Source: Bacillales bacterium UBA4682
Lineage (GTDB): Bacteria > Bacillota_I > Bacilli_A > RFN20 > CAG-288
NCBI GenBank assembly: GCA_002404995.1
Contig: DHKY01000014.1
Location: 7,524 to 71,523, forward strand
DNA: 64,000 bases
Reading direction: 5' to 3'
Part shown: positions 45,044 to 59,177 of the stretch, piece after piece
Numbering within the stretch: the first letter of the stretch is position 1
Layout of the letters: each line of letters begins with the position of its first letter
The notes under the pieces: generated by a model
What the model saw: only the letters and a program-made list of their open reading frames with translations
What the model was told of the DNA's origin: nothing
The model's database searches: none
Made by a program: the position numbers and the translations under genes

Positions 45044-45874
45044 ATGCTAAACCAGTATTCGCGCAGTGCTCTTCTCGTCGGAAGAGAAAAGCTCCACAAG
45101 CTCTGGAATAAGAGAGTCATCATCTTCGGTGTCGGTGGTGTCGGCGGAAACGTCGTCGAAGCCTTGGCCAGATTCGGTATCGGTTCCTTTGATTTAGTCG
45201 ATGACGATTTGGTCTGTCTAACTAACATCAACCGTCAGATTCTAGCAACAAGAAAAACTTACGGTAGATATAAAATCGATGTCGCTGAGGAAAGAATCCA
45301 CGATATCAATCCGAAAATCATCGTGAACAAACATCAGACTTTCTATCTTCCAGACAAGAAAGAAGAGTTTGATTTCTCATCTTTCGACTATGTGATTGAT
45401 GCCCTGGATACTGTCACTGCCAAGCTTTCCATTATTGAAAGCGCAAAGAAAGCAAATGTTCCGGTTATTTCAGCTAGGGGATGCGGAAACCGGCTTGATC
45501 CTACAAAGTTAGTTTTGTGTGATATATTTCAAACCAAAAGGGATCCGCTTAGCAAAGTCAGGCGCCGTGAACTACGGAAAAGAGGAATCACTTCCCTGAA
45601 AGTCGTTGCCTCTACGGAGCCTCCGACAAGACCGGATGAAAAAGAAACAGAGGATTCCTGCCTCTACCATTGTGTCTGCCCTCCGAACACAAAACGGAAA
45701 TGCACGGATCGGAGAGATATTCCTGGCTCTACCAGTTTTGTTCCACCGGTAGCCGGTACTCTCATTGCCTACCAAGTCGCCAAAGATTTGATGGAGACAG
45801 AAGAAGACCCTGAAAACCAAAGAGAAGACAATCCGTTTATTCAGGATAAGAGACCATCTTCTCATAATCTCTGA
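45044..45874 (+). CDS. tcdA: tRNA threonylcarbamoyladenosine dehydratase (TcdA/CsdL, ThiF/MoeB E1-like).
   Basis: VIIFGVGGVGGNVVEALARFGIGSFDLVDDDLVCLTNINRQ is a Rossmann E1-like motif typical of TcdA. Confidence 0.7.
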   Translation: MLNQYSRSALLVGREKLHKLWNKRVIIFGVGGVGGNVVEALARFGIGSFDLVDDDLVCLTNINRQILATRKTYGRYKIDVAEERIHDINPKIIVNKHQTFYLPDKKEEFDFSSFDYVIDALDTVTAKLSIIESAKKANVPVISARGCGNRLDPTKLVLCDIFQTKRDPLSKVRRRELRKRGITSLKVVASTEPPTRPDEKETEDSCLYHCVCPPNTKRKCTDRRDIPGSTSFVPPVAGTLIAYQVAKDLMETEEDPENQREDNPFIQDKRPSSHNL

Positions 45875-46805
45875 TAGCAAGCAAACAACAGTCTCTTAAA
45901 AACGGTCTGTATTTATCTACTTGATAATAAGCTTTCAGTAAATAGCTGCCTTGATTAAAAATCTAAGAATGCATTGAAACTGAAAACTTATTTTTAATAT
46001 CAGAAAGATAGTCAATCCGTGGAACAAAGATTTTCCTATATTTCTTCAATAGGAACGCACAGAAGTAAGAAAAAGTGTAGATTTTATTCTGATAACCCAT
46101 ATTCTTCACTGACAGCTTTAAGCCAAACCCGATGTCAATACTTATCCGATGAAATAAGTGCCCGAAGTGGCTTTGAATTACCGTTCTTAACTTTGACTTT
46201 TCTTAGGATTATTTCTGTAATAATAAAGCTTAGGCTCAGCTTAGACAAGTGCTTTTGCAAAAATGAATTCTTATTGGAGTGTTAAAAATATCAAAAATCA
46301 GTCACTTTTTGCAAAAATGTTCTCCCAATTTTCTTTTTATTGTGAATATCTCTGCAAAAAGTAAACATATTTTCTGCCTTAAAGCACATTTTTATAGCGA
46401 AAAAGCAGACTTCTTAGCACATTTTTCAAACGAGAGTTCAAAAGTCTGTATGTGTTCTCAAAAGTAGACTTCCCTCTGAAAGACTGCTTCGGAAAGGTCT
46501 AAAATAGTGTTTCAAGATTCTAGCCAATACGTTATTCTTGGCAAACTTTTTCCTATTAAAACGCTAACCGTATGTAATGGTTTTGATTGTTCTAATTTTC
46601 AAAAAAGTCAAATGATCGAATGGAGTTCTTTTTATAGCTCCAAGCTAATAGTTTGCCTTGACTTCCTTTCGATATACATTTCCTATTTGTTGACCATCAT
46701 TGATTGCTTCGAACTTCAGCTAAAGGTTTCTTTCATTTGACAAATGAGTTTAGGCATAGCTAAATTTGTTATAATATCTATGATGTTTTTTTGGGAGGAA
46801 TCATT

Positions 46806-47456
46806 ATGAAGAAAAGAATTATCATTCCGTTGTTTATTCTAACCAGTCTTCTTTCTGGTTGTGGGAAAACAAATCTTAAAAGCCTTGTGACTGGAAAAAT
46901 CGATTGTTTTTCTATCTCAGTAACAAACGGTGGAACTAAGATTTTTTCAGAAGAGTATAGTTCTTCCTACAATGGGGTTTATGAGTATAGAGACAATGAA
47001 GGAAAATCCATATTCCTCAGCCATCATCTCATTGGTACTTCCTCTAATTACGGAACAAGCGAAGAAGCAGAAATTCATGTGTTTGAGAGCAGATACAAGG
47101 AGCAATACTCAATTTATACCTTCTATAGTTTTATCGGCTGGCTAACAGTTGAGAACAACTATTATTATGATTTAGACGAAAACATTATCGATTGTGAAAC
47201 AAAATGGAGTCAGTATCTCTACGAAAAAGATCCCGGCGAGGAAAAAGGAGATAACGAAAAAGCCTATCAATGCGCTAAAAATTGTTATTTTCAAATAAAT
47301 ACAATTGGCTATCCGTTTCTGTTGCCAAAAGACTCTTCTTCAGGTAATTTCTATTACACTCTGAAAAAAGATAGGGAAGAGAGTTCTTTAGAACGTCACT
47401 CCTATATTCATCTCGGAAAAGATGATATGGTTTCTTATAAAGAAAAGTGGTTCTAA
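46806..47456 (+). CDS. Small lipoprotein, paralog of 55504..56133.
   Basis: MKKRIIIPLFILTSLLSGC lipobox. Shares IDC..I.VT.GG......YSSS.G.VYEYR.E.G.SI.LS....GT with the 55504 gene. Confidence 0.6.
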   Translation: MKKRIIIPLFILTSLLSGCGKTNLKSLVTGKIDCFSISVTNGGTKIFSEEYSSSYNGVYEYRDNEGKSIFLSHHLIGTSSNYGTSEEAEIHVFESRYKEQYSIYTFYSFIGWLTVENNYYYDLDENIIDCETKWSQYLYEKDPGEEKGDNEKAYQCAKNCYFQINTIGYPFLLPKDSSSGNFYYTLKKDREESSLERHSYIHLGKDDMVSYKEKWF

Positions 47457-47484
47457 TCACAATAGAAAAGAAGACAAAAAGGAA

Positions 47485-48087
47485 ATGAATTTAAAAGAAT
47501 ATCATCAAGTTAAGGATAGAACATATTTGGACTACTGCTATTATCTGCAGAAAAAATACGATATTCCTAAATCACCTTACTTTACGAAAAAATGGGTAAA
47601 AACTAAGGGATTATCCAGAACAAGCGAAGGTTTGTTCATTCACCACATCTACGAAGATCATGCCATCAGGCTCGGTGACCCCATATACGCATGTCACAAT
47701 CCATATCAATGGCAGATGCCAGAGAATCTTGCCTATTGTGATTTCCTAGAGCACCTTTTCCTTCACATTCTGATTTGCGAATACCCCTCCCCAGAACACA
47801 ACAAGAATGAAATAGTAGGGGTCGGAGGTGTTGTAAATTTCCTTGTTCCTGAACTTAACGATGTCTATTCGGGATTTGAACCTAAACTCCGATGGAAGCA
47901 AAACTGCTATAACGCAGTCATCATGGATAAAGATGTTTTCTTTGAACTTGTAAAACGCTTCAAACACAATGGTGACAGTGCTATCCGCCTTTATGAAGAC
48001 AGACTCTATCGAAGTTACAACGAATCGTTTGAACTTTGGTCCGCTGAGAAAGATAAAGATATCATTTCAGTCTTAAAGGAACTTTAA
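47485..48087 (+). CDS. Hypothetical cytoplasmic protein (200 aa) located just upstream of an orphan DinJ antitoxin gene.
   Basis: Intact ORF (start taken at MNLKEY). No known motif except HHIYEDH. It ends 52 bp before the dinJ-like gene. Confidence 0.4.
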   Translation: MNLKEYHQVKDRTYLDYCYYLQKKYDIPKSPYFTKKWVKTKGLSRTSEGLFIHHIYEDHAIRLGDPIYACHNPYQWQMPENLAYCDFLEHLFLHILICEYPSPEHNKNEIVGVGGVVNFLVPELNDVYSGFEPKLRWKQNCYNAVIMDKDVFFELVKRFKHNGDSAIRLYEDRLYRSYNESFELWSAEKDKDIISVLKEL

Positions 48088-48139
48088 TCAAAAACATTCT
48101 CAGTAAAAAACAACTCAATAAAAAGGAGAAATCTATCTA

Positions 48140-48382
48140 ATGCCAAGAATTGATTTTACAATCCAAATAGACCCAGAAATCAAAAAAGAAGCAGAAGCTG
48201 TCTTTGAGGATTTGGGCTTAAGCTTCAACAATGGACTCGATTTGCTTTTACGTCAGGTAATAAAAGAAAGACGAATTACTATTGCAGTTCCTGAGCCCAC
48301 TCAAGACGAGACCTCAGATCGTAAGCCATCCACCAAGGAACTTAATAATTACAGGATGCTATTCAGAGAAATCGATAAATAA
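48140..48382 (+). CDS. RelB/DinJ-family antitoxin (no canonical toxin downstream).
   Basis: MPRIDFTIQIDPEIKKEAEAVFEDLGLSFNNGLDLLLRQVIKERRI is the DinJ RHH signature. Confidence 0.7.
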   Translation: MPRIDFTIQIDPEIKKEAEAVFEDLGLSFNNGLDLLLRQVIKERRITIAVPEPTQDETSDRKPSTKELNNYRMLFREIDK

Positions 48383-48480
48383 TGAATTCTTGAGTAAAAG
48401 GAATATTTCTTTTCAGTGTATTTCCAGGAAACAAAAGAGAACACGGGTCCATATGATAAAATAGAAGCGAGGACACACAC

Positions 48481-48978
48481 ATGAACAAGAAATTATTATC
48501 CCTTCTGTTACCCGTATTCAGGCTTACAGGCTGTTCCAATCCGATTGATATCAGGGTGCAATACGGAGACGGAAAAATCGAAGATGATGAAATAGGAGTC
48601 AGCTATCGCATTGACGAACAGAGGAAAGACGGTTATGAAATCAAAGGCTATTCCTATGCTGCTAAGAATGCAAGACTGAGTGATAAGACCTACTTTTCCT
48701 TAGTCGACGTCTCTCCTCTTTACTCCGAATCCTATAACGAACATCTCCTTATCTCCTTCCGGAAACAGGACTATACGAAGAAAGACGATGGAACTTATCG
48801 CATTGACTTTACAATTAAATTGGAAAAGCTCTCCGATTATTTCGATAAAACAGATACCAATAAGAAAGCTTCTTTCTTTATCCATGGGGACGACTTCAAC
48901 CGCAGTGATATAACCACTTATAGCACGAGCGACTTCGAATACACCTTTGATGGTACAACTCTGAAGATTACCAAATAA
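48481..48978 (+). CDS. Small lipoprotein (165 aa).
   Basis: MNKKLLSLLLPVFRLTGC lipobox. Confidence 0.5.
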   Translation: MNKKLLSLLLPVFRLTGCSNPIDIRVQYGDGKIEDDEIGVSYRIDEQRKDGYEIKGYSYAAKNARLSDKTYFSLVDVSPLYSESYNEHLLISFRKQDYTKKDDGTYRIDFTIKLEKLSDYFDKTDTNKKASFFIHGDDFNRSDITTYSTSDFEYTFDGTTLKITK

Positions 48979-49139
48979 CCATTGACTCTTTTCTTTCTAC
49001 GACTATAATTCTCAATCGGAAATGATGTCTTCCAGATATAGGGTCTGCCTATATCAAACCGCTTTGGATTATAAAGCTGATGACGTCTATGCTGGTTTTC
49101 AGCATAGAGGAAATCAGCTTTTTTCATAGGAGGTAGAAG

Positions 49140-50393
49140 ATGTCTATTTTCTTCACTTTGTTTCTGATTATTTTCGGAGGTGTGGTTCTTAACAAGCTGG
49201 CAAAGAGGGTTCATGTTCCTCCTCTTGTTCTGTATCTGCTTTATGGCATTCTTCTTTCTGTATTAGAAGAAAAGTTCGATTCTTCCTTTACTTTCCTCGA
49301 TTCCGGAGTCAGGAATATTTCTTCAGCTATTCGGAAGGTCGCCTTAATTATCATTCTTCTTAAAGCAGGGCTCTCTCTTAATCTATCCGATTTAAAGAAA
49401 GTTGGTAGACCAGCTATTCTAAGGTCTTTTCTTCCAGCCTGTACGGAAAGGGTAGCCGTAGGTATCTTTGGCAAGAGGATTCTGGGTTTAAGCTACACTG
49501 AGAGTTTTCTTCTTGGTTCCGTGCTTGGCGCCGTTTCTCCGGCAGTTGTCATTCCGAGGATGTCAAAACTGAGGGATGAGAAATACGGTACCGAAAAAGG
49601 AATTCCACAGCTTGTCATTGCCGGAAGCAGTATCGATGACATTATCAGGATTGTCTTTTATCAATGCTTCTTGACTAGGGAAAAAGGAGGAAGCCTTTCA
49701 GTGAGGACTTTCCTGAATATCCCCATTTCCATTGTCACAGGTGTCGGTTTGGGAATCCTTTTGGGTAGGCTCTTATCTTTTGTCTTTGATAAAGCAAAAA
49801 GGAACGATACCCTAAAACTGCTACTTCTTCTTTCCATCTGTTTCGGGCTTACTTATTTAGAAGACCTTGTCTCTCCTTATTTTGGATATTCTTCCCTTCT
49901 TTCCATCATTACCTGTGCCATTGTCCTCCATAAGAAAATAGAACCGGTATCCTTAGATCTTAAGAATAAGTTCAATGAAATCTGGTACTTAGCTGAAATC
50001 TTCCTTTTTGTCTTAGTCGGAGCGGGAATCAAGATTGAATATGCCGGCAAATTCTTCCTGCCTGCCCTTCTCCTGCTTTTGATTTCCCTTGCCTTCCGCA
50101 GCTTAGCTGTTACTGGTTGTTTAGTAAAAACCAAGCTGAACTGGAAGGAAAGAGGCTTTGTTGTCATAAGCTATCTTCCGAAAGCGACAGTCCAGGCCGC
50201 TATTGGAGGAGGATTATTGGATCTTGGGAACCAGCTTCTGGCCTCGGGAGCTGCAAATGCAGAAAGTGTCATAGCCGCAGGCACGATTGTTTTATCCGTT
50301 TCAGTCCTTGCTATTCTTCTCACTGCGCCAGCTGCAGCAATTTCAAGGAACCTTCTTTATCCCCATAGGCTGAGAAGAGAAGAGTGCAAATAG
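49140..50393 (+). CDS. Cation:proton antiporter-like membrane transporter (CPA/NhaP-like).
   Basis: About 12 transmembrane segments, 417 aa. N-terminal pattern typical of Na+/H+ exchanger family proteins. Confidence 0.55.
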   Translation: MSIFFTLFLIIFGGVVLNKLAKRVHVPPLVLYLLYGILLSVLEEKFDSSFTFLDSGVRNISSAIRKVALIIILLKAGLSLNLSDLKKVGRPAILRSFLPACTERVAVGIFGKRILGLSYTESFLLGSVLGAVSPAVVIPRMSKLRDEKYGTEKGIPQLVIAGSSIDDIIRIVFYQCFLTREKGGSLSVRTFLNIPISIVTGVGLGILLGRLLSFVFDKAKRNDTLKLLLLLSICFGLTYLEDLVSPYFGYSSLLSIITCAIVLHKKIEPVSLDLKNKFNEIWYLAEIFLFVLVGAGIKIEYAGKFFLPALLLLLISLAFRSLAVTGCLVKTKLNWKERGFVVISYLPKATVQAAIGGGLLDLGNQLLASGAANAESVIAAGTIVLSVSVLAILLTAPAAAISRNLLYPHRLRREECK

Positions 50394-50413
50394 CTCTAGC
50401 TAGAACATCGACT

Positions 50414-51118
50414 CTAAGAATCTTTTTTCTTTTCCTTTTCCGCTAATTGCTTTTTCAGTTCTTCGATTTCCTTATCCTTGGCTTGCAAAGCTTCATTCTT
50501 CTTTTCATCTGTCTTTTTCTTTTTTTCAAGGAAAACGTAGGAAAAGATTCTATAGATTTCAAAGCAAAAGCCGAGCGTACAAGGAATGATGACACAAAAA
50601 GCCATTCCCTTCTTTGACGTCAGAAAAAGCATGAATTTTCCGAGAGGGAGGTTGACAGAGACAACTTTTCCAATGATTTCGCCGCTTCTTCCGTCGCTGT
50701 AAAGCACCTGGCAATCATCTTCGACCGCATCCCCTTTAACGACGTACCTAAAAGTGCCGTCTTCCATTTTCACCAGATCTTCGATGATTCGATGCGTAAC
50801 GGTTTCATTTCCGAGACTTGTATAATTGAATGTCAGGATATCTCCCTTTTTCAGGCTGGAATAGAAAGCATCACTGTTGTCATTTACTTCATCCTTGATA
50901 AGCGAACCAATAGGAATTGTCTTAATCGGATACTCACTTTGTTCTTCCCCATCCATTGAAGAAGAAATTACGACAAGGTATTGGCTGTTTCCGATTCTTC
51001 CTCCCGTCACTCTTGAGGTAATCGAAAGACCAGCAAGCAAAAGAAGCAACACCAAAAGAAAATAGAAAAGAACGTTTCCAGTGATACGGAAGAAGGTTTT
51101 GATTTTTCCTTTATTCAT
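50414..51118 (-). CDS. sipW: SipW-type (ER/archaeal-type) signal peptidase I.
   Basis: N-terminal transmembrane segment. Catalytic Ser in LVVISSSMDGEE and His in ETVTHRIIEDL, then a C-terminal transmembrane segment and a K/E-rich tail. Last gene of the operon with TasA-like genes. Confidence 0.7.
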   Translation of the reverse strand: MNKGKIKTFFRITGNVLFYFLLVLLLLLAGLSITSRVTGGRIGNSQYLVVISSSMDGEEQSEYPIKTIPIGSLIKDEVNDNSDAFYSSLKKGDILTFNYTSLGNETVTHRIIEDLVKMEDGTFRYVVKGDAVEDDCQVLYSDGRSGEIIGKVVSVNLPLGKFMLFLTSKKGMAFCVIIPCTLGFCFEIYRIFSYVFLEKKKKTDEKKNEALQAKDKEIEELKKQLAEKEKKKDS

Positions 51119-51214
51119 AATAAATTCTATTGATAATGCAGTAGCAATCGAGATCTAAGGCAATAATTTAAATAAATGAGGCAGAGAAAACTCTGCCTCA
51201 TTGCTGAAAAGACT

Positions 51215-53155
51215 TTAGCGGGTGAAAGCCTGCTTCACTCCATCAAGGTTAAAAACAACTTTGTCTGTCTTAGAGGGTCCGCCATTTCCTTCATAAGTGG
51301 AATTGCGAACGCCGAATAAGCCAGCCTTGCCATCAATTATTCCCTTTCCAAAGTTTCCAGACCAAGTCGATTTGTTGAAGTTGACAGTCCAGAGAGTATT
51401 CGGAGCCTGACCAGCAGAATTATCGAGAGAAATAACTGTATATTTCAGATCATTCTCGCTGCCAGCCTCATAAGGAGTCTCATTCGTGCTGACAAAGGTG
51501 CAGTCATTAATATCGACAATAACGCCCCTAGGTGCCTCTACATCCTTGAAAAGCTTGATTCCAGCTTTCTTTCCGGAGAAAGAGCAATTATTGAATTCGA
51601 AGTGGGTACCGGCATAAAGGTATACGTTATCGGATTCACTGATGAATTTGCAGCCATCAAAGACAGCCGAAGATCCCTCTTGTCCAGCTGCTCCGTTGGA
51701 GCCAAAGTTTTTCCTCAAGCCATTGATGGTGCAATGGTCAAAATGAAGTGAATTAGCCCGGACAAAGCCAATATTGTTGGAGCTGCCAGTTGCCATAAGG
51801 GTCCTATCTGCAAAGGAAGCATTAGCACCATTATCGAAGGCATAACTAGAAGAATCGGAAATGACAAGTTTAGAGTCTTCGCCTTTACCCTGGAATGCAA
51901 TGCGAACTCCATTGAATTTCGATCCGGCATCACCAAGGTTGAATTCGCCGGAAGGAAGGACAATTTCGTTCAAGGCATCTTTTACGATCGTAACATCCTT
52001 AAGCGAGCCGCCTTCCTGGATTTCAACGTGATTCTTCTTCTCCTGAACAACATAGTAATCACCATCCTGGACAACTTCATAGCCTTCGGCTACAAAGTTT
52101 GCAGCAACGCCGTCCGGTTCAGTCCTGGAATTCGAAGGATCATACTTATAGAAACGACCGCCTTTGACAACAATCTTTGCTGTACCAGCCGTGTAATTTT
52201 TGTCAAGACAATTCAAAGTCCACTTCGGAGTGACCGATTTGAAAGTGCCGCCGTTAATTTCGATTTCTCCTTCTTCGGCATAGATCAAATCATATTGGGA
52301 ATCCGTTCCAGTAACTTCCTGGGTATAGTAACCATCATTAATGACAATTTTTCCGCCATTAGAAACCATGACTGCCATGGCATATTTATTTGTCTCAAGA
52401 GCCGTAACTTTTCCATTGCCTTCGACAGTCAGGACAGAACCGGCCTTTTCATTCCGGATAACACCTGAGCCAGAACCGGTAATCTGTAAATTATCGATGT
52501 TCTTAACACCGTCTTTGACCGTGTAATCAGAAGTAACCGCATTGCTCTGAACCGCTTCCGTAACCAAGGAAAAAGCAAGACTGGGGTTCTCGACCTGAGT
52601 AGCGGTAGCTGGCATTTCGATAGTGAATTCGAAGCTGTCGATTGTTTTAGCAGCCGGAGAAGCCTCACTCCAGCGTCCAGTATTGAAATGCATATTGCTG
52701 GTTTCTGTAATTTTGAGCTGATTAAAGAAATCCCTGCTGGTTCCTTCGGCTAAAAGCATTTTCTGGCAATACTTAATCTTGACGGTACTATTATTGACAA
52801 TATCGACTTTCAGAACAACTTTATCACCCGGCCTCCTTTTATCAATAGAAACAACGTTTTCATCGACACTGGCGTTTCCGAAAGAAAGAGCAAGTTTCTT
52901 CTTTCCGCTATCATTCGTAAGAGTTTTCACATCCGAGTCAGCATAAGTTCCATCCATGTTGATATGTTTCAAATACGATGTGCTCTTAAGCGAAATGTTT
53001 TCTTCGACATTGACTTTTCCGGCAACAACGTTGATTTCTGCCTCAGCTTTGCTGGTAAAGAGAGCATAAGTCGCAGTCGCCGCAGCGGTTCCGAATGCAA
53101 GAGCTCCTAAAACAGATAGTAAAATACCCTTCCCTAATTTTTTTGTCTTTTTCAT
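51215..53155 (-). CDS. TasA/camelysin-like (SipW-cognate signal class) secreted protein, fused to a large C-terminal right-handed parallel beta-helix domain (646 aa).
   Basis: N-terminal LGALAFGTAAATATYALFTSKAEA matches the SipW-cognate motif (GGGTFAYFSD). The C-terminal ~350 aa show N..G...C.F/N.S beta-helix rungs (DHCTINGL, DGCKFISE, NNCSFSGK, NDCTFVST). Confidence 0.65.
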   Translation of the reverse strand: MKKTKKLGKGILLSVLGALAFGTAAATATYALFTSKAEAEINVVAGKVNVEENISLKSTSYLKHINMDGTYADSDVKTLTNDSGKKKLALSFGNASVDENVVSIDKRRPGDKVVLKVDIVNNSTVKIKYCQKMLLAEGTSRDFFNQLKITETSNMHFNTGRWSEASPAAKTIDSFEFTIEMPATATQVENPSLAFSLVTEAVQSNAVTSDYTVKDGVKNIDNLQITGSGSGVIRNEKAGSVLTVEGNGKVTALETNKYAMAVMVSNGGKIVINDGYYTQEVTGTDSQYDLIYAEEGEIEINGGTFKSVTPKWTLNCLDKNYTAGTAKIVVKGGRFYKYDPSNSRTEPDGVAANFVAEGYEVVQDGDYYVVQEKKNHVEIQEGGSLKDVTIVKDALNEIVLPSGEFNLGDAGSKFNGVRIAFQGKGEDSKLVISDSSSYAFDNGANASFADRTLMATGSSNNIGFVRANSLHFDHCTINGLRKNFGSNGAAGQEGSSAVFDGCKFISESDNVYLYAGTHFEFNNCSFSGKKAGIKLFKDVEAPRGVIVDINDCTFVSTNETPYEAGSENDLKYTVISLDNSAGQAPNTLWTVNFNKSTWSGNFGKGIIDGKAGLFGVRNSTYEGNGGPSKTDKVVFNLDGVKQAFTR

Positions 53156-53169
53156 CTTTATATTCCTTT

Positions 53170-53811
53170 CTATTTCGTCACCTGAACAACATGAACAGAG
53201 ATGTCGGCATCAAGGCTTTGGCCTTGAACAAGATTGTTTTCTTCGTCGTCAACAAACTCGAAGGAAAGCGAGAACTTCTTCTTTGCATTCTTATCGACAA
53301 TCGAATTATCCTGATCTTCCAATGAAAAATGAATCTGAGTAAGAATAGAAGCATCTTGCCCCAATTCTTTTCCATCCGCATCGTAGGCTTTCTTTGTCCT
53401 TGCAAGCTGATAGGTAAAGGCAACGTCACCCTGATTCACCAAGGTAAACTCAGCCTTTCCGCCCATCGTAGGAGCAATCTCCACCTGGGGGAACACGCTT
53501 TCCTTATATAATGACAAATCTACACCACCGATATCTTTGTCATATACGCTTTTCCCATCGGAAGTATACTTGCTCAAATCAATAGTCTTCTCGGATGGCC
53601 GTCCAGTAGACTGGTCAATTTCATCCCTTGTAAGAGACGTAAGATACAAGCCTGCCTTCACTCCCTGCCCAATAGTCAGATGAGCGTTCACCTTCTTCTG
53701 GCTTGAGAAAAGAGCATAGGTCGTACCCACGGCAGCACTAATTAAAAGCAGTGCCGCGGACCTGCTGGCAACAAATTTACTATGGAAACTAGGATTCTTC
53801 TTGTTTTCCAT
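53170..53811 (-). CDS. TasA/CalY/camelysin-like (peptidase M73 fold) SipW-cognate secreted protein (213 aa).
   Basis: AALLLISAAVGTTYALFSSQKKVNAHL is a SipW-cognate signal peptide. The size and position match tasA/calY-type fibre subunits. Confidence 0.65.
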   Translation of the reverse strand: MENKKNPSFHSKFVASRSAALLLISAAVGTTYALFSSQKKVNAHLTIGQGVKAGLYLTSLTRDEIDQSTGRPSEKTIDLSKYTSDGKSVYDKDIGGVDLSLYKESVFPQVEIAPTMGGKAEFTLVNQGDVAFTYQLARTKKAYDADGKELGQDASILTQIHFSLEDQDNSIVDKNAKKKFSLSFEFVDDEENNLVQGQSLDADISVHVVQVTK

Positions 53812-53844
53812 TTAACCTCCTTTTATATCTTTAACAGCGATTCT

Positions 53845-54405
53845 CTAGAAAAGTCGCTGAAAAAAGATCACCCTTATCTTTTCCCGGATTTCCAGGAAAA
53901 CACCATTGAGAAAAAGCAATCTTTCCCCCCAAACTTCTTCGGGGACATCCTCGGAGACCCGAAAATAGAAAGAATATTCAGTGGATTTATTTGCAGACAA
54001 AGAGGCCTTATCAATCGCCATAAGACCCCTAATATAAGAGAGGGATTTATTATCAATGATTTTTTCTTTGTCTCTGATTATTGAGACAGAAACATAAGGA
54101 TAAACGGATTCGGTCTCCTGTTTTTCAAACGAGAGGGAGACGTCAATGCTTCTGCTGACTTTGGAAACAAGCTTAATTTCCTTGCTCTTCTCTTGGCCTA
54201 ATCCAATTGTGCCAAGATTGACAGACGAAACAATCTTGTCTTCGGTTTTATCCATAACAAGAACATCATTCGAGTGGGAATTACAGAACGACAGCAAAGC
54301 GAGCGCAAAACAGAAAACAAACGTGAATATCAGAACGATAACGGCATACTTCCGTACATTCTTTTTCATTTTTATGGCTTCATGATACCCCCCCCCCGAA
54401 CCCAT
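53845..54405 (-). CDS. Membrane-anchored protein, first gene of the sipW-tasA-like operon. Its 5' end contains a G10 homopolymer (codons 3-6 if the ATG at 54405 is used; 18 nt upstream if MKKNVRK is the start).
   Basis: ATGGGTTCG-G9-TATCATGAAGCCATAAAAATGAAAAAG. MKKNVRKYAVIVLIFTFVFCFALALLSFC is a signal/anchor. Confidence 0.5.
   Translation of the reverse strand: MGSGGGYHEAIKMKKNVRKYAVIVLIFTFVFCFALALLSFCNSHSNDVLVMDKTEDKIVSSVNLGTIGLGQEKSKEIKLVSKVSRSIDVSLSFEKQETESVYPYVSVSIIRDKEKIIDNKSLSYIRGLMAIDKASLSANKSTEYSFYFRVSEDVPEEVWGERLLFLNGVFLEIREKIRVIFFQRLF
54388..54397. repeat. Poly(C)10/poly(G)10 homopolymeric tract, a candidate slipped-strand phase-variation switch.
   Basis: Only C/G homopolymer of 8 or more in the 64-kb window. 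Located at the 5' end of the fibre operon's first gene. Confidence 0.6.
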
Positions 54406-54711
54406 CTGTCAATTCTTTTTTTGTCCTTTCGGCGGCAAGTTATTTGATAAATTTTTTCTTTTTTTAATTATAAAAGCGGAAACATTCCTTGTTTTTCAGA
54501 TATTTTTAATAAAGCAACTTAATTTTTCAGAATGTAGATATCTACATAAAACTTTTAGAAATAAAATGTGTACCTTGTTTTGCTTCTTTTGCTTCATGCA
54601 GTCCATTCCTCAAGTCCAAGGAGTATTAACCCTTGGTTGGAGTCATGCGTTATACTGTCTCCCATTAATTCTGCAAACCACTGTTCTTTTCTATTTTTTG
54701 TTCAATGGAGG

Positions 54712-55389
54712 TTATTTTGCTAAAGAATAGCTTTCTTTTATTAGTTCTATGATTTCTTCATCCCTCCTTCTATCGTCAAGAAGGATGGTATACCAATGCT
54801 TTTTGTTCCTATGGTAGCCTGGGAAGAAACGTTTATTATCGATGGAAGAAATTCGGCTTTCCTCTCCTCTCAAATCCAGGACATCAAAGACTTGTTTTCC
54901 GTCTAGTCCTAGTTTCTCTGCTTCTACTTCCCTAAATAAGCAATACCATTTCCGGTTTCCCTTCTTCCGGATAATTGCATCCGTTGGGAACTTCGACCAA
55001 AGATGTTCTAAGCTATCCTGATAGTAGTCCGTGATAAATTCAATGATTCGTTCTTTCTGTGTCTTCTTTTTTATCGTGCAGGAAGACAGGATGTTTTCTG
55101 TGATCGTATCGTATTCTTCTTTCACAAGGCTTGCATAGCCACTAGCTCCGTTGACATCCACAAGTTCATACTCTTCACGAAAGTCATTATCAATCAGATG
55201 ACACTCCAGAACATTATCCTTCAAAGTATATTGGGCAGTAAAAGGATAGGACAGAAGAGGCTTCTCAAAGAAAAGTCCGACGTTCTTTTCCTCAAATCCT
55301 AGCTTGCGGAATCCATTTAAATCTACTTCTCTATTTTTCAGTTCTATTTTTCTCATTCTAGCTATCCTCTTCCCTAGTGATTTTATCAC
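54712..55389 (-). CDS. MmcQ/YjbR-family DNA-binding protein with an N-terminal extension.
   Basis: C-terminal RKKGNRKWYCLFREVEAE...KHWYTILLDD matches YjbR/MmcQ family hallmarks. Confidence 0.6.
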   Translation of the reverse strand: MIKSLGKRIARMRKIELKNREVDLNGFRKLGFEEKNVGLFFEKPLLSYPFTAQYTLKDNVLECHLIDNDFREEYELVDVNGASGYASLVKEEYDTITENILSSCTIKKKTQKERIIEFITDYYQDSLEHLWSKFPTDAIIRKKGNRKWYCLFREVEAEKLGLDGKQVFDVLDLRGEESRISSIDNKRFFPGYHRNKKHWYTILLDDRRRDEEIIELIKESYSLAK

Positions 55390-55503
55390 GGAAGCAGAGT
55401 CACCGAGCCTTCAGATAAGAATAGGGATACTCCCATTTCATAAACACTTGTTGTTTATGTGAATGGAAACCAATACAATAGATACAGAGGTGGAAATAAA
55501 AAG

Positions 55504-56133
55504 ATGAAAGGAAAAATCATTTTCGGTTTAAGGCTGTCTTGCTGCTTATTCGGATGTTCAAGCAATACCAGTGGCATCATCGACTGCTACACAATCGAAG
55601 TGACTAGCGGAGGAAAATCTGTTTTAAATAAGACCTATTCTTCAAGCTTTGGAAAAGTCTACGAATACAGAAACGAGAACGGGGATTCGATTTACCTCAG
55701 TAGTAATGTCAAAGGAACAGACTACTATTCTTCTTACTCTGATGATCAAGATGCCGAAATCCGTGTTTTCAAAGACAGATATACGACGGAATATACTACC
55801 TACACTTATCTAGGCTTTATCGGTTTTCTTACCATTGAGCAAAACTATTACTACAATACCATCCGTAAGATCATCGACTGCGAAACCAAATGCAGGGAGT
55901 ATCGGTATGAAAAAAATCCAGACAATCTGCAAGCAAATAATCCAAAAGCCTATGCCTGTGCAAAACAAGGATATTACAAGGTGAATTCGACAACCCAATC
56001 AAAAGACGCTTCTACCAAGAAGTTCTACTACCCTCTAATTCTGGACTTAGAAGATAAATCCTTAGTCAGGCATACCTATTTCAAGCTTGGCGAAGATAGT
56101 ATCGTCTCCTACAAAGTGAAGTGGTTCGAATAA
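55504..56133 (+). CDS. Small lipoprotein, paralog of 46806..47456.
   Basis: MKGKIIFGLRLSCCLFGC lipobox. Alignable with the 46806 gene over the full length (IDCYTIEVTSGGKSV...VYEYRNENGDSIYLS...IDCETKC). Confidence 0.6.
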   Translation: MKGKIIFGLRLSCCLFGCSSNTSGIIDCYTIEVTSGGKSVLNKTYSSSFGKVYEYRNENGDSIYLSSNVKGTDYYSSYSDDQDAEIRVFKDRYTTEYTTYTYLGFIGFLTIEQNYYYNTIRKIIDCETKCREYRYEKNPDNLQANNPKAYACAKQGYYKVNSTTQSKDASTKKFYYPLILDLEDKSLVRHTYFKLGEDSIVSYKVKWFE

Positions 56134-56309
56134 TCCGGCTACGAAGTCATTAAGATTGCGAAAACAAGCAAAAGCAAAAGATGATACTATAGAATTTAAT
56201 ATGCTGTTTTCCCTTTGATTTTGCTTGACAATAGTTGCAATTTAAAATATCATATTTATGTAATCGCTATCAACCTATTGAGTAGGGATCACTCAGGAAA
56301 GAGGTAAAA

Positions 56310-59177
56310 ATGAAAAAAATCAAAAAAGTTTTTGTAGTTTCTTCATTGCTGTTTTTCCCATTAACTGGAACACTGACAAGCTGTCAGCCAAAGACCAGCG
56401 AGGAAATCAAGTACGGAACTGTTTCGGTTGCTGAGGGCATCACCGGTGGCACAGTCAGTGCAACCAAGCTCGGCAATGTAGCTCTGGATACGGAAATCAC
56501 TATCCTTGCAAGTCCGGATGATGGATATGAAGTCGACTCCTACTTTTTAAATGATACAAAGCTTGACTCCAATACCTTTAAGGTAAAAGAAGGTTCGAAC
56601 ATCATCAAAGCCACTTTCAAGCAGACCACCCCGCTGACCGAATTCGGAACCGTGGAAGTCATTTCTGCCAAAGTCACAAACGGAACCATCGTAGCCAGAC
56701 TCGAAGACGGAACTCTCATCGATAAATCAAACAAGAGATTCAAAGCGGGTACCAAAGTCTTTGTCGAACCCACTCCAGTGAACAAAGCCTATCAGATTAC
56801 TTCGATCAAATTAAACGATACGACTGCCGTCAATAAAGATGCGGATGGAAAATATTCTTTCCTTGTTACAGAAGGAAAGAACTTCCTTGGTGCTGATTTC
56901 GGTTTGATTCATCCTGGAAAGGGTTTGATTGACTTAGATAGCTCCTATAAGAACGGAACCGTCGTTATCAAAAACGGAGACACCATCGTCAACAGCGGTG
57001 ATGCTATCGGCAAAGACACGGAATTAAAAATAACCGCTACCGCCGAGGATAAATACATTGTCCGCTATGTCAAAGTCAACGGAAAAGAGCTGACAAAAGG
57101 CGAGAACGAAGATAGCTATTCTTTCAAAGTCAACGAAGGCTTAGTCTCCATTGAAGTCAGCTTTGTTTTCAAAGCAACATCCCTATCCATCAACATTCCA
57201 GATAGCTGGATCAAGGTCGAAAGCCGTTGGGGAAACTATTATTTAGTCGAGCAAGGAGAAACCTATGACTTAGGAGTCACCCTTACACCAGAAGGCAGCT
57301 TTGCTGACTTATCCTGGAAGAAGGGCGATACCGATAAGGACATTGAAGTCAAGGACGGCAAACTCACAGTCCTTAATGCAAGCGAGAACACAAACACGAT
57401 TATCGTCAGTTTAACAGACAACGATTCCATTGAAGCGGAAGTCAATGTCAAGCCGATTTCAAGCGGAACAAGGCTCGCAAGGAAACTGAAAGACAAGCTG
57501 GAAGCGGCCAAGACCTATGAGATTGCAAACACGAAGAAAGTCACATTCCGTTCAATTGTCAATGATGACTATACGAATGAAAACAACCAGTTCGATTTTG
57601 AAACCTATTCCGATGGATATACGGTAACCAAGAAGACGGATAAAGAAGGTGCCTCAAGCTACCTCTATCAAGGCATCAACGATAATACGTTCTATACCTT
57701 AAAGAAGGAAGGCGCAAAGGTCTCTTCTTTGTCTAGCACGGATATTGATGACAGCAACAAAGCGGATTACCAGGATTATCTCAAGACCTTTGGTTCTGTT
57801 GAGTTCTTAGACAATAACGGATTAGGAACCAAATACACAGGTCTGGCAGATCTGTATCAGAAGAGGATTATTGACCAGACCTTCTCTCTCGATGGCGATC
57901 AGAAGGAAATCCGTGCTTCGCTTGTCGGATTGAAAGATGATGAAGGATACAAATTCACCTCCACCTGCACGACGACCGGTCTCCGTAGAGTGAAATATAA
58001 GACCGATGTCACTTCTCTCCTCTCCTTCAATGCTCAGGGCGGCATTGAATCCATCTCCTATAAACGCGTCGATCATCAGATTGACGATGACGGAAATCTT
58101 GTTGCCAGTGCCAAAGACCAGATTACCGAATATACTGCCACCATCGAATACGGTGCAAAAGAGGCCGATCCGAACCACTATTTCAATTTCAACGACTACT
58201 ACTACACTGCCTTTGATTTGAGTCTCTATACGAATAAATCCGATAAGGAAGGAAGCAAGCTGACTATGGATTCCGATGGAAAGTATCACCTTTATGTCTC
58301 CCAGTATGCTTACGGAAATCTCACCGGAATCGTTCCGGAAACTGCTTTATCCGATATTGACGACATCACGGTCACAAAGGATTCTGGAATCAATGCCTAC
58401 GGAAGCGTAAAGTACGGATATACCTTCTATTCGGTGAAAGCCGGCGAATACCACGTTACCCTTGCAAGCAAGAATGTGACAAAGACTCTTACTTTCGTTA
58501 TCGAATATGCACCGATTGAGAAAATCGAATTTAAAACCGTACCCGACTCCCTCTATTTCGATGCTAAGAGCGAAATCAAGGCAACAGTCTCTCCTAGCGG
58601 TGTCGAGAACAGCAATGTCACTTACACCATTGAAGGTGAAGACTTAGGCTGCTCGATTGTCAAAGAAGGAAGCAAGTACAGGCTTCAGGCGGGTTCGACG
58701 GCTGGAACAATCACTGTCAAGGCAACAGCCGATGGCGACAAGAGCAAATCCGTTGCTAAGTCAGTTGTAATCAAAGAGGTGCCTTCCATCTATGAGTCCA
58801 TCAAAGGAAATTCCTATAGGAAGTCAGAGATGGACTATAGCACTTATGACACTACCTATTACACGGTTTCCTTCACGGATGTTTCCAAAGATGTCCTCAA
58901 AGGTACCTTAGTCATCGAAACAGAAGGCTATTATTCGGAAAAGACTACCCTTGCTACCTTTACCTTCGATGTCCAAGTGAAGGGTGCTACCTTGACTCTC
59001 ACCAATATCACCTGCACCAATGATTCCTTGAAAGACAAGCTTTCCAGCACAAGGAGTGGAAATCTGAAGTCCGACGGAACTTTGGATAGCATTAACATTA
59101 CCTATAACGGAACAACTCTGAAACTGCCTAAGAAATCCTCTAGCAGGGAAGGCGGCGAAGGCGGCTTGGATTGGTAA
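56310..59177 (+). CDS. Very large surface lipoprotein (955 aa) with multiple Big-like/Ig-like domains.
   Basis: MKKIKKVFVVSSLLFFPLTGTLTSC lipobox. Repeated beta-rich modules. Confidence 0.6.
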   Translation: MKKIKKVFVVSSLLFFPLTGTLTSCQPKTSEEIKYGTVSVAEGITGGTVSATKLGNVALDTEITILASPDDGYEVDSYFLNDTKLDSNTFKVKEGSNIIKATFKQTTPLTEFGTVEVISAKVTNGTIVARLEDGTLIDKSNKRFKAGTKVFVEPTPVNKAYQITSIKLNDTTAVNKDADGKYSFLVTEGKNFLGADFGLIHPGKGLIDLDSSYKNGTVVIKNGDTIVNSGDAIGKDTELKITATAEDKYIVRYVKVNGKELTKGENEDSYSFKVNEGLVSIEVSFVFKATSLSINIPDSWIKVESRWGNYYLVEQGETYDLGVTLTPEGSFADLSWKKGDTDKDIEVKDGKLTVLNASENTNTIIVSLTDNDSIEAEVNVKPISSGTRLARKLKDKLEAAKTYEIANTKKVTFRSIVNDDYTNENNQFDFETYSDGYTVTKKTDKEGASSYLYQGINDNTFYTLKKEGAKVSSLSSTDIDDSNKADYQDYLKTFGSVEFLDNNGLGTKYTGLADLYQKRIIDQTFSLDGDQKEIRASLVGLKDDEGYKFTSTCTTTGLRRVKYKTDVTSLLSFNAQGGIESISYKRVDHQIDDDGNLVASAKDQITEYTATIEYGAKEADPNHYFNFNDYYYTAFDLSLYTNKSDKEGSKLTMDSDGKYHLYVSQYAYGNLTGIVPETALSDIDDITVTKDSGINAYGSVKYGYTFYSVKAGEYHVTLASKNVTKTLTFVIEYAPIEKIEFKTVPDSLYFDAKSEIKATVSPSGVENSNVTYTIEGEDLGCSIVKEGSKYRLQAGSTAGTITVKATADGDKSKSVAKSVVIKEVPSIYESIKGNSYRKSEMDYSTYDTTYYTVSFTDVSKDVLKGTLVIETEGYYSEKTTLATFTFDVQVKGATLTLTNITCTNDSLKDKLSSTRSGNLKSDGTLDSINITYNGTTLKLPKKSSSREGGEGGLDW

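What the first reader, a model, noticed from the sequence alone, without database searches (positions are those of the whole stretch)
50414..54405. sipW-tasA-like fibre operon whose large subunit fuses a SipW-cognate TasA-type N-terminus to a parallel beta-helix domain
Four co-directional genes: a membrane protein (53845..54405), a 213-aa TasA/camelysin-like protein, a 646-aa protein, and a SipW-type signal peptidase (Ser in SSSM, His in THRI). Both secreted proteins carry the GT(A/T)TYALF(T/S)S SipW-cognate signal. The 646-aa protein continues into ~350 aa of right-handed beta-helix rungs (DHCTINGL/DGCKFISE/NNCSFSGK/NDCTFVST). This TasA-like/beta-helix fusion is not part of the B. subtilis TapA-SipW-TasA paradigm. 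It could be a fibre tip adhesin or a polysaccharide-binding or polysaccharide-cleaving head displayed on a TasA-like fibre.
Basis: partly seen in the sequence, partly recalled or inferred. Interest (0 to 1): 0.7.

Follow-up and report, generated by a model that had tools for sequence, protein, structure and literature searches.

The report
TasA-type fibre operon with beta-helix head
This four-gene operon from an uncultured gut bacterium appears to build a TasA-type surface fibre whose large subunit carries a two-part beta-helix head; the design is common but barely described in gut Firmicutes, and the same head also sits on unrelated Bacteroidales pilins.

Summary

The "membrane protein" is itself a TasA-fold protein with a transmembrane anchor and no donor strand, from a family that sits next to the peptidase gene in at least 12 loci. 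The fusion is also not rare: 49 of 77 species loci carry a TasA-like domain fused to MID and/or CTD.

The gene set mirrors the tip/shaft/anchor/peptidase model proposed for archaeal Tafi. The MID-CTD cassette also occurs, colinear at 33% identity, on Bacteroidales fimbrillin-like lipoproteins, and MID ends phage tail-fibre proteins. No acidic residue is conserved in CTD, so binding is more likely than catalysis. Homopolymer tracts at the operon head vary in length between samples, which suggests phase variation.

Verdict: a new variant of a known kind, of moderate interest. Fibre assembly and ligand are inferred, not shown.

The parts
54382..54412 (-). Promoter-like element with an embedded G10 tract. 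TTGACA is at 54412-54407, a 19-nt spacer contains G10 (54397-54388), and TATCAT is at 54387-54382, 12 nt upstream of the ATG at 54369.
   Evidence: Read directly from the sequence. The scan tool did not report it because the spacer is 19 nt. The tract is G10 in the window and in L085 but G11 in L087. Promoter function is inferred.
53845..54369 (-). Membrane-anchored TasA-fold protein with no donor strand. It is 174 aa from M13; the mechanical ORF extends to 54405 (186 aa). It has an N-terminal transmembrane helix and then a truncated TasA-like beta-sandwich. Proposed role: fibre anchor/terminator.
   Evidence: jackhmmer within the fetched loci finds a family of 160-197-aa single-TM proteins immediately upstream of the SipW-like gene in at least 12 loci, with PG and GNEAQ motifs. 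hhalign of this family (A3) against the TasA-like N-domains (A2) gives 97.5% probability, E 7e-12, over 104 columns that exclude the signal/donor region. No curated family hit.
53925..53930 (-). G6 tract inside the 3' end of the anchor gene.
   Evidence: Cluster members P0157 and P0158 change reading frame exactly after EEVWG, so all three frames are seen in public assemblies. The window's frame is the one that aligns with the family's C-terminal strand.
53170..53811 (-). 213-aa small TasA-like subunit, the proposed shaft pilin. It has a signal peptide, a predicted SipW-type site GTTYA|LFSS, and a conserved NHL-x-AG motif.
   Evidence: Pfam PF12389 scores 21.2 bits (cut-off 22.5) and TIGR04088 scores 14.4 (cut-off 19). 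It is 41% identical to the 213-aa gene of L001-L004. hhalign of its family (A4) against the large-subunit family (A1) gives 99.4%, E 4e-21, over 190 columns. Homologues sit directly upstream of large fusion genes in many loci.
52520..53155 (-). 646-aa protein, residues 1-212. This is the signal peptide, the predicted cleavage site/donor strand (ATYA|LFTSKAEAEINVVAGKVNV) and the TasA-like beta-sandwich.
   Evidence: T29, A31, F33, T34 and G46 are invariant in 30 homologues. A profile of 31 N-domains hits the TasA fibre 8aur (E 9.8e-7), TasA 5of1 (6.4e-6) and AbpX 9sj2 (9.3e-6). In the model, residues 1-43 are disordered and the rest is beta.
52037..52507 (-). 646-aa protein, residues ~217-373: the MID module, short beta-helix-like rungs ending in a GY-x-VVQDGDYYVV hairpin.
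   Evidence: pLDDT is 83-97. The module is about 50% identical to modules in ~390-aa TasA-like proteins, in SLH proteins (in tandem) and at the C-terminus of Mtd_N or collagen-repeat phage tail proteins. No Pfam or PHROG model covers it.
51218..52018 (-). 646-aa protein, residues ~380-646: the CTD module, a right-handed parallel beta-helix with a Cys/Phe ladder (C475, C502, C524, C552).
51175..51202 (-). 12-bp G+C-rich hairpin between the stop of the 646-aa gene and the start of the peptidase gene. It is terminator- or attenuator-like, with a weak T tail.
   Evidence: Terminator scan. Its function is not tested.
50414..51118 (-). 234-aa SipW/ER-type signal peptidase I. It has two transmembrane segments, S54 in SSSM, H109 in THRI, and a Lys/Glu-rich C-terminal tail.
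   Evidence: NCBIfam NF046067 (SipW) scores 59.5 bits (cut-off 190) and TIGR02228 scores 42.5 (cut-off 51.85). A weak match to SEC11C aligns THRI and KGDAVEDD. S54, M55, H109 and G129 are invariant in 33 distinct relatives. It is 53% identical to the peptidase of L001-L004.

Best explanation
The operon encodes a Sec- and SipW-dependent surface fibre of the TasA superfamily, assembled by N-terminal donor-strand exchange from three structural proteins.

Shown:
- All three structural proteins share the TasA fold family.
- Two of them (213 aa and 646 aa) carry the signal/donor-strand motif.
- The third has a transmembrane helix in place of that motif.
- A Ser/His ER-type signal peptidase is encoded alongside them.
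- The 646-aa protein ends in a two-module right-handed beta-helix.

Inferred:
- The peptidase cuts after T-Y-A. This frees the strand LF(T/S)S..., which inserts into the beta-sandwich of the next subunit.
- The 646-aa protein starts or decorates the fibre and presents the MID-CTD head outward.
- The 213-aa protein forms the shaft.
- The membrane-anchored, acceptor-only protein takes the last donor strand and so ends the fibre and ties it to the cell.
- The head most likely binds a glycan or another surface ligand and is not an enzyme.
- Expression is probably switched by slippage of the homopolymer tract at the operon head.
For: - **Gene set and conservation:**
- **TasA homology:** the N-domain profile hits TasA 8aur/5of1 and AbpX. 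The 213-aa family matches the N-domain family at 99.4%. The anchor family matches the N-domain family at 97.5%, without the donor region.
- **Motif:** the signal/donor-strand motif is invariant across 30 and across about 100 homologues. By alignment the cleavage site corresponds to TasA A27|A28, with the donor strand at residues 28-38 (PMC9674648).
- **Peptidase:** sub-threshold SipW and archaeal SPase I hits, and invariant Ser/His.
- **Beta-helix:**
- **Head is a display module:** it is colinear at 33% identity (E 6e-36) with Bacteroidales Mfa2/DUF6562 lipoproteins that lie in tandem after a DUF3575 gene. MID lies at the C-terminal end of Mtd_N and collagen-repeat phage tail proteins and in SLH proteins.
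- **No conserved acidic residue in CTD:**
- **Anchor gene linkage:** the anchor gene sits next to the SipW-like gene in at least 12 loci.
- **Precedent for the design:** Tafi has TafC tip (pilin-like domain plus head), TafE/TafA shaft, TafF membrane anchor and TafD peptidase (PMC11821415, PMC12337348). AbpX loci have predicted tip proteins and anchors. Multiple BsaA/TasA paralogues per operon have been suggested to form heteropolymers (PMC11580942).
- **Tract variation:** G10/G11 here, and C7/C8/C9 in the sister operon.
Against: - No curated model threshold is met by any of the four proteins.
- No multimer prediction could be run, so donor-strand complementation between these proteins is untested.
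- The AF2 model of the 213-aa protein failed (pLDDT 39.7).
- The 646-aa protein has both a donor strand and an acceptor domain, so it could sit anywhere in a fibre, not only at the tip.
- The anchor's transmembrane helix is N-terminal, whereas that of H. hispanica TafF is C-terminal (the Natrinema TafF1/F2 counterparts have a membrane helix followed by the jelly-roll domain).
- No DUF5305-type peptidase accessory gene and no sortase or LPXTG gene lies nearby.
- The closest structural matches include many enzymes.
- The promoter reading of the G tract relies on a 19-20-nt spacer, which is longer than the optimum, and homopolymer length differences between assemblies could in part be technical.
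Confidence: 0.6

Rival explanations
1. Decorated matrix fibre rather than tipped pilus. The 646-aa protein polymerises along the whole fibre, alone or alternating with the 213-aa protein, so every subunit carries a beta-helix side arm that cross-links cells or polysaccharide in a biofilm matrix, as TasA or BsaA scaffolds do.
For: The 646-aa protein has both a donor strand and a complete acceptor domain. Many loci carry two to six tandem large paralogues and sometimes no obvious small subunit (L017, L037, L013). TasA and BsaA are matrix scaffolds (PMC9674648, PMC11580942).
Against: A small subunit gene conserved directly upstream of the large gene and a dedicated acceptor-only anchor fit a polar, cell-attached fibre with differentiated subunits better. 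A strong hairpin and the gene order hint at differential stoichiometry, but neither was measured.
Confidence: 0.2
2. Tethered enzyme. The beta-helix head is a polysaccharide lyase, hydrolase or esterase displayed on the cell surface through the TasA-like domain, for degrading dietary, host or bacterial glycans.
Against: Sequence identity to those enzymes is only 7-15%. There is no hit to any catalytic Pfam or NCBIfam family. Across 62 CTD sequences the conserved positions are Gly, Phe, Cys, aromatic residues and Lys, with no conserved Asp, Glu or Arg as expected of these active sites. Several of the conserved aromatic and Lys positions are themselves substituted in this protein. Non-enzymatic beta-helix adhesins (PfbA, UpaB, pertactin) score nearly as well.
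Confidence: 0.12
3. No fibre at all. The TasA-like N-domain is only a SipW-dependent export and cell-surface retention module, and the proteins act as monomeric surface proteins.
For: Nothing here shows polymerisation. The camelysin/CalY family was first described as cell-surface proteins (my own knowledge of the family; PMC11580942 mentions only its likely misidentification as a peptidase).
Against: The residues that form the TasA donor strand are the most conserved part of the family. An acceptor-only paralogue with a membrane anchor is hard to explain without strand exchange. Every studied member of the superfamily polymerises (TasA, BsaA, AbpA, AbpX, Tafi).
Confidence: 0.08

Closest known systems
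Bacillus subtilis tapA-sipW-tasA (TasA fibres assembled by donor-strand exchange; PMC9674648, PMC10151520)
   Same: A dedicated ER-type Ser/His signal peptidase is encoded with TasA-fold proteins. The signal peptide ends in a conserved motif that becomes the N-terminal donor strand. An accessory paralogue is present in the operon. Profile homology to the TasA structures is significant.
   Different: Gene order differs. No curated SipW or TasA model threshold is reached. The large subunit carries about 430 extra residues of beta-helix. The accessory protein is a transmembrane-anchored, donor-less TasA fold, whereas TapA is thought to supply the first donor strand.
Haloarchaeal Tat-fimbriae (Tafi): TafC tip, TafE/TafA shaft, TafF membrane anchor, TafD peptidase (PMC11821415, PMC12337348)
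   Same: The four-role design is the same: a two-domain tip protein (pilin-like domain plus a distinct head), a small pilin, a membrane protein with one helix plus a jelly-roll domain that accepts the last strand, and a dedicated signal peptidase. The roles in Tafi are themselves largely model-based.
   Different: The host is bacterial, not archaeal. Export signals are Sec-type, not Tat-type. The head is a beta-helix, not laminin-G-like. The anchor helix is N-terminal rather than C-terminal as in H. hispanica TafF (the Natrinema TafF1/F2 counterparts have a membrane helix followed by the jelly-roll domain). There is no TafG/DUF5305 or TafB regulator gene.
Clostridium perfringens sipW-bsaA-bsaB-bsaC (PMC11580942, PMC7395162)
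   Same: This is a Clostridial operon with SipW, two TasA-like proteins and one large secreted protein with a functional domain. Paralogues within one operon have been suggested to form heteropolymers.
   Different: BsaC is a von Willebrand A protein, and the paper does not describe it as carrying a TasA-like domain. BsaA locks its subunits with an N-E-K isopeptide triad, which I did not test here. BsaC secretion and efficient BsaA oligomer secretion depend on type IV pilus components.
Bacteroidales type V (Mfa/Fim) pilus-like lipoproteins with DUF6562/Mfa2 N-domains (for example P0183 in L088)
   Same: They carry the same MID-CTD cassette, colinear at 33% identity. It sits at the C-terminus of a pilin-like domain, in tandem paralogues, in gut metagenomes.
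   Different: The scaffold domain, the export route (lipoprotein, outer membrane) and the phylum are all unrelated. Whether these particular proteins are pilus subunits is also only annotation-level.

Membership tests
TasA/camelysin family (Pfam PF12389; TasA superfamily) | Score at or above the Pfam gathering threshold (22.5 bits) | tested here: not met
   The 213-aa protein scores 21.2 bits and the 646-aa protein 13.8 bits. Close homologues P0046, P0052, P0085 and P0100 carry precomputed PF12389 hits.
TasA/camelysin family (Pfam PF12389; TasA superfamily) | Sequence-profile homology to the solved TasA jelly-roll | tested here: met
   Profile A2 (31 N-domains) hits 8aur at E 9.8e-7, 5of1 at 6.4e-6 and AbpX 9sj2 at 9.3e-6. 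A4 against A1 gives 99.4%. A3 against A2 gives 97.5%.
TasA/camelysin family (Pfam PF12389; TasA superfamily) | Polymerisation by an N-terminal donor strand | not testable with these tools
   Only single-chain prediction is offered. The donor-strand region is the most conserved stretch and is disordered in the monomer model.
SipW-cognate signal (NCBIfam TIGR04088) | Score at or above the cut-off (19 bits) | tested here: not met
   The 213-aa protein scores 14.4 bits. The 646-aa protein has no hit at E<=0.1. The motif G-x-T-[FY]-A-[WL]-F-[TS] is nevertheless shared with about 100 homologues, some of which JGI names 'SipW-like signal peptide'.
SipW-cognate signal (NCBIfam TIGR04088) | Actual cleavage by the neighbouring peptidase | not testable with these tools
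   This needs N-terminal sequencing or mass spectrometry with and without the peptidase.
SipW (NCBIfam NF046067 equivalog) / archaeal-ER type SPase I (TIGR02228) | Score at or above the curated cut-offs (190 and 51.85 bits) | tested here: not met
   The scores are 59.5 and 42.5 bits. The protein is a relative, not an equivalog of Bacillus SipW.
SipW (NCBIfam NF046067 equivalog) / archaeal-ER type SPase I (TIGR02228) | Ser/His catalytic pair rather than the Ser/Lys of bacterial P-type enzymes | tested here: met
   S54 (in S-M) and H109 (in T-H-R/K) are invariant in 33 distinct relatives, with no conserved Lys in the catalytic domain. THRI and KGDAVEDD align with SEC11C.
Right-handed parallel beta-helix (pectin-lyase-like fold) | Structural match to solved beta-helix proteins | tested here: met
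Right-handed parallel beta-helix (pectin-lyase-like fold) | Pfam PF13229 Beta_helix hit | tested here: not met
   The query itself has no hit. Homologue P0166 has PF13229 at 33 bits, overlapping its CTD.
Polysaccharide lyase / hydrolase / esterase on a beta-helix | Conserved catalytic acidic or basic residues | tested here: not met
   No Asp, Glu or Arg column reaches 60% conservation across 62 CTD sequences. No catalytic family hit.
Tip/shaft/anchor/peptidase pilus locus of the TasA superfamily (Tafi, AbpX type) | Presence of all four gene roles in one operon | tested here: met
   The anchor-like, small-pilin, two-part large-subunit and peptidase genes are contiguous. The roles are assigned by analogy.
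Tip/shaft/anchor/peptidase pilus locus of the TasA superfamily (Tafi, AbpX type) | DUF5305-type peptidase accessory protein | tested here: not met
   Pfam scans of the four operon proteins and of ten flanking ORFs (45005-48978 and 49140-62282) listed no DUF5305 family. Some ORFs of at least 60 aa in that span were not scanned.
Phase-variable contingency locus | Homopolymer tract at the 5' end whose length differs between otherwise identical sequences | tested here: met
   The tract is G10 in the window and L085 and G11 in L087. The sister operon has C7, C9, C7 and C8 in four samples, and only C9 keeps the first ORF open.
Phase-variable contingency locus | Tract length changes expression | not testable with these tools
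   This needs reporter fusions or read-level population data.

The most novel reading that the evidence does not exclude
The MID-CTD beta-helix is a horizontally exchanged 'pilus head' cassette of the gut microbiome. It is mounted on two non-homologous strand-exchange pilin scaffolds: TasA-type in Bacillota, processed by a SipW-like peptidase, and fimbrillin/type V-like in Bacteroidales. MID is also borrowed by phage tail fibres. The cassette would recognise a shared ligand such as a bacterial cell-wall or host mucus glycan. In Bacillota the fibre that carries it would be held on the cell by a new acceptor-only, membrane-anchored TasA-fold terminator and switched on and off by homopolymer slippage.
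Probability: 0.3. Interest if true: 0.7.

Novelty: new variant of a known kind. Interest (0 to 1): 0.5.

Why it matters
TasA-type fibres are studied mostly as biofilm scaffolds of Bacillus and a few archaea. Recent family surveys kept only proteins of 100-350 aa, so large head-bearing members were filtered out.

Such members, with their own peptidase and a membrane-anchored acceptor-only paralogue, turn out to be widespread in uncultured gut Clostridia and Bacilli. The same head is also used by Bacteroidales pilin-like lipoproteins and by phages.

If the inferred assembly is right, this is a major and essentially unstudied class of adhesive appendage in gut commensals. It comes with a defined candidate ligand-binding module that can be expressed and screened, and with a simple genetic switch.

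Tried and rejected
- **Single-protein genome scan:** the scan of the GTDB genome collection found nothing. The alignment-based scan then worked.
- **Word-indexed searches:** searches with the anchor protein and the 213-aa protein each returned only two proteins (near-identical sequences and one closer relative at 61% or 82% identity), so no deep alignment allowed by the tool could be built.
- **Structure jobs:** The 3-sequence model of the 213-aa protein was unusable (pLDDT 39.7) and was not fold-searched.
- **Direct PDB sequence searches:** the 646-aa and 213-aa proteins found nothing. The anchor-family profile alone hit nothing meaningful. The 213-aa family profile ranked TasA and AbpX first, but only at E 0.11-0.75.
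- **PHROGs:** no family covers MID or CTD.
- **Organism identity:** cluster look-ups of ten housekeeping-size proteins returned no names. The nearest peptidase relatives are L022 (57% identity; titled Bacteroides uniformis, whose binning I doubt but did not check) and L001-L004. A Holdemanella contig (L043) has a similar N-terminus. The host is therefore probably an Erysipelotrichales-like gut Bacillota, but this is not established.
- **'Hyaluronidase' label:** I considered and dropped the label on MID-bearing phage proteins as a functional clue. Their only Pfam hit is the N-terminal Mtd_N domain, and for P0041 the hyaluronidase PHROG hits also lie at the N-terminus, not in MID.

Full report
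**1. What is there**

The region 50414-54405 holds four co-directional minus-strand ORFs of 186, 213, 646 and 234 aa. A convergent Na+/H+-exchanger-family gene bounds them downstream. A 306-bp gap and then a YjbR-family gene bound them upstream.

No curated model reaches its cut-off for any of the four proteins:
- the peptidase scores 59.5 bits against NF046067 SipW (cut-off 190) and 42.5 against TIGR02228 (cut-off 51.85);
- the 213-aa protein scores 21.2 against PF12389 (cut-off 22.5) and 14.4 against TIGR04088 (cut-off 19);
- the 646-aa protein scores 13.8 against PF12389;
- the 186-aa protein has no meaningful hit.

The assignments below therefore rest on profile-level, structural and contextual evidence.

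**2. The 646-aa protein has three parts**

BLAST of the query against its 120 best database relatives separates three regions:
- an N-terminal region (1-~212), shared with many proteins that NCBI calls 'TasA family protein' and JGI calls 'predicted ribosomally synthesized peptide with SipW-like signal peptide';
- a middle module, MID (~217-373);
- a C-terminal module, CTD (~380-646).

MID is about 50% identical to modules found in several contexts. These are ~390-aa TasA-like proteins, SLH-anchored surface proteins (where it occurs in tandem), and the C-terminal end of phage tail proteins that begin with Mtd_N or contain collagen repeats.

CTD is much rarer. An exhaustive phmmer search of 1.84 billion cluster representatives gave 44 hits at E<=1e-3.

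In a 30-sequence colinear alignment, T29, A31, F33, T34 and G46 are invariant. Among 103 representatives of 137 N-domains from other loci, the N-termini examined (70 printed) nearly all carry the motif G-x-T-[FY]-A-[WL]-F-T-[DS].

**3. TasA homology**

A profile of 31 N-domains hits the TasA fibre structure 8aur (E 9.8e-7), monomeric TasA 5of1 (6.4e-6) and the archaeal AbpX fibril 9sj2 (9.3e-6). The family of the 213-aa protein aligns to the N-domain of the large-subunit family with 99.4% probability (E 4e-21, 190 columns), including the signal and donor-strand region.

In TasA the signal peptide is removed by SipW, and residues 28-38 (AFNDIK...) become the donor strand that completes the next subunit (PMC9674648). 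By alignment, the equivalent cut here would be T-Y-A|L-F-T-S in the 646-aa protein and T-Y-A|L-F-S-S in the 213-aa protein. This placement is an inference.

**4. The beta-helix**

An AlphaFold2 model built on the 30-sequence alignment has pLDDT 76.6 and pTM 0.72. Residues 1-43 are disordered and the rest is all-beta, with pLDDT 83-97 across MID.

- Foldseek agrees weakly.
- PF13229 Beta_helix hits the CTD-equivalent region of a homologue.

Across 62 CTD sequences the conserved columns are a Cys ladder (C475, C502, C524, C552), a Phe ladder, glycines, several aromatic positions and Lys571. No acidic column is conserved. I read this as favouring binding or a structural role over catalysis. It is suggestive, not proof.

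**5. The 'membrane protein' is a fourth TasA-fold component**

Iterative searching within the fetched loci links the 186-aa protein to a family of 160-197-aa proteins. Each has one N-terminal transmembrane helix, and each lies immediately upstream of the SipW-like gene in at least 12 loci. They share the PG and GNEAQ motifs of the TasA family.

hhalign of this family against the N-domain family gives 97.5% probability (E 7e-12) over 104 columns. Those columns cover the core sandwich but not the signal/donor-strand segment. The w186 subgroup also lacks the T-x-A|x-F motif.

The protein is therefore a membrane-tethered acceptor-only paralogue. I propose that it accepts the last donor strand, so ending and anchoring the fibre. 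This is the role modelled for TafF in archaeal Tafi (PMC11821415, PMC12337348).

**6. The peptidase**

The 234-aa protein has two hydrophobic segments, S54 in SSSM and H109 in THRI. In 33 distinct relatives from these loci, S54, M55, H109 and G129 are invariant, and no catalytic-domain Lys is conserved. A weak match to human SEC11C aligns THRI and KGDAVEDD.

This is the ER/archaeal/SipW class of signal peptidase I, but not an equivalog of Bacillus SipW.

**7. Conservation and frequency**

A sister operon in four independent gut metagenome contigs (L001-L004) has this gene order:
- a 205-aa protein;
- a 163-aa anchor-like protein;
- a 75-aa protein;
- a 204-aa TasA-like protein;
- a 213-aa TasA-like protein (41% identical to the window's);
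- a 630-aa protein (37% identical);
- a 239-aa peptidase (53% identical).

I scanned one genome per GTDB species with patterns from the alignment and kept the 77 best loci. Scoring their ORFs with domain HMMs I built myself gave these counts:

| Feature | Loci | ORFs |
|---|---|---|
| TasA-like N-domain | 72 | 183 |
| TasA-like protein of at least 350 aa | 70 | 133 |
| N-domain fused to MID and/or CTD | 49 | 81 |
| N-domain fused to CTD | 18 | 18 |
| Exact N-MID-CTD order | 6 | 6 |
| SipW-like gene within the fetched flank | 29 | 31 |

Hosts are mostly uncultured Clostridia (Oscillospiraceae, Ruminococcaceae, Lachnospiraceae, Christensenellaceae), with some cultured species (Brotomerdimonas butyrica, Lentihominibacter faecis, Yeguia hominis, Merdimmobilis hominis) and some Bacilli. 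B. butyrica has six such genes in tandem. They are not a census.

**8. The head is shared across scaffolds and phyla**

Of the 43 CTD representatives that I scanned (all hits except P0002), 15 have the TasA-like N-domain (11 also match my strict motif pattern). Most of the others start with lipoprotein-type or other signal peptides, and one (P0176) is an SLH protein.

Two of them (P0178, P0183) have Pfam Mfa2 (type V pilin) and DUF6562 N-terminal domains. P0183 aligns colinearly to residues 239-557 of the 646-aa protein at 33% identity (E 6e-36), spanning MID, the linker and CTD.

Its contig encodes a DUF3575 protein followed by five tandem DUF6562-family genes, at least four of them with lipoprotein-type N-termini. 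Three carry MID and two carry CTD. The cassette therefore sits at the C-terminus of two unrelated pilin-like scaffolds, and MID alone ends phage tail-fibre-like proteins. This is the strongest evidence here that it is an outward-facing recognition head.

**9. Regulation**

The operon begins with TTGACA, then 19 nt containing G10, then TATCAT, 12 nt before the ATG of M13. The tract is G10 in the window and in one metagenome contig, and G11 in another. In the G11 contig the gene is called from M13.

A G6 tract near the 3' end of the same gene is the exact point at which two database variants change frame.

The sister operon has a poly-C tract 37 nt into its first gene, with C7, C9, C7 and C8 in four samples and identical flanks. 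Only C9 keeps the 205-aa ORF open.

Two lineages with a length-variable homopolymer at the operon head point to slipped-strand phase variation, as expected for an exposed adhesin. The effect on expression is untested.

A 12-bp hairpin separates the 646-aa gene from the peptidase gene.

**10. Comparison with what is known**

- The TasA superfamily, its dedicated peptidases, donor-strand assembly, multiple paralogues per operon, and predicted tip and anchor proteins are all in the recent literature (PMC9674648, PMC10151520, PMC11580942, PMC11821415, PMC12337348, and bioRxiv 10.64898/2026.01.04.697558).
- The AbpX survey kept only proteins of 100-350 aa and the TafE survey none above 350 aa.
- Four literature searches found no description of TasA-like domains fused to beta-helix heads, or of the N-terminally anchored acceptor-only paralogue.

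I therefore class the locus as a new variant of a known kind, not as a new kind of system.

**11. Limits**

- Fibre formation, cleavage, subunit order, ligand and phase switching are all inferred.
- No multimer model could be run.
- The 213-aa model failed.
- The host organism could not be named.

Noticed in passing
window 54388-54397 (minus strand), with TTGACA 54407-54412 and TATCAT 54382-54387: A G10 tract lies in the 19-nt spacer of a promoter-like element just upstream of the operon's first gene. It is G10 in L085 but G11 in L087, where the gene is then called from M13. It is a candidate slipped-strand switch.
   Followed up: partly
window 53925-53930: A G6 tract lies inside the 3' end of the anchor gene. 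Database variants P0157 (164 aa) and P0158 (191 aa) shift frame exactly here, so all three frames occur in public assemblies.
   Followed up: partly
L001 ~1089, L002 ~3369, L003 ~438, L004 ~537: The sister operon has a poly-C tract 37 nt into its first gene (205 aa, no Pfam family, no TM helix). It reads C7, C9, C7 and C8 in four samples with identical flanks, and only C9 keeps the ORF open.
   Followed up: partly
window 51175-51202: A 12-bp G+C-rich hairpin with a weak T tail lies between the 646-aa gene and the peptidase gene. It may act as an attenuator that sets a lower peptidase dose.
   Followed up: no
window 49009-49096: A fluoride riboswitch (Rfam RF01734, 43.1 bits, gathering score 34) lies directly upstream of the Na+/H+-exchanger-family gene at 49140-50393, which is convergent with the operon.
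   Followed up: no
window 1952-2082: A full-length match to Rfam 'Staphylococcus-1 RNA' (RF03112, 109.9 bits, gathering score 87.7), in a genome that does not look staphylococcal.
   Followed up: no
window 46791-47456 and 55459-56133: Two paralogous lipoprotein-like genes (46% identity over 222 aa), both on the plus strand, bracket the ~8-kb segment that holds the fibre operon. This may be a duplication or an island boundary.
   Followed up: no
L085 (ENA ERZ26858363), aligned to window 50816-54771: A 99.3%-identical contig has 29 nt of deletion in two gaps. There the 646-aa gene is called as 68 aa plus 565 aa, presumably split by the deletion (I did not map the gaps): a natural disrupted allele or an assembly artefact.
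   Followed up: partly
window 50414-50530 (peptidase residues ~197-234): The SipW-like peptidase ends in a Lys/Glu-rich, coiled-coil-like cytoplasmic tail after its second TM segment. The C-terminal region of B. subtilis SipW has a separate signalling role (from my own knowledge; not checked here).
   Followed up: no
L017 2273-3619 and L037 1230-2552: In Brotomerdimonas and Lentihominibacter the gene upstream of the peptidase encodes a ~440-aa protein with two or three copies of the anchor-like domain, and the peptidases themselves are enlarged (437 and 375 aa).
   Followed up: no
window 56310-62282: Just beyond the operon lies a cluster of large lipoprotein-like surface proteins. One is 955 aa with an InlB B-repeat-like Flg_new_2 domain, one is 373 aa, and one is 655 aa with a weak hyaluronate-lyase N-beta hit.
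   Followed up: no
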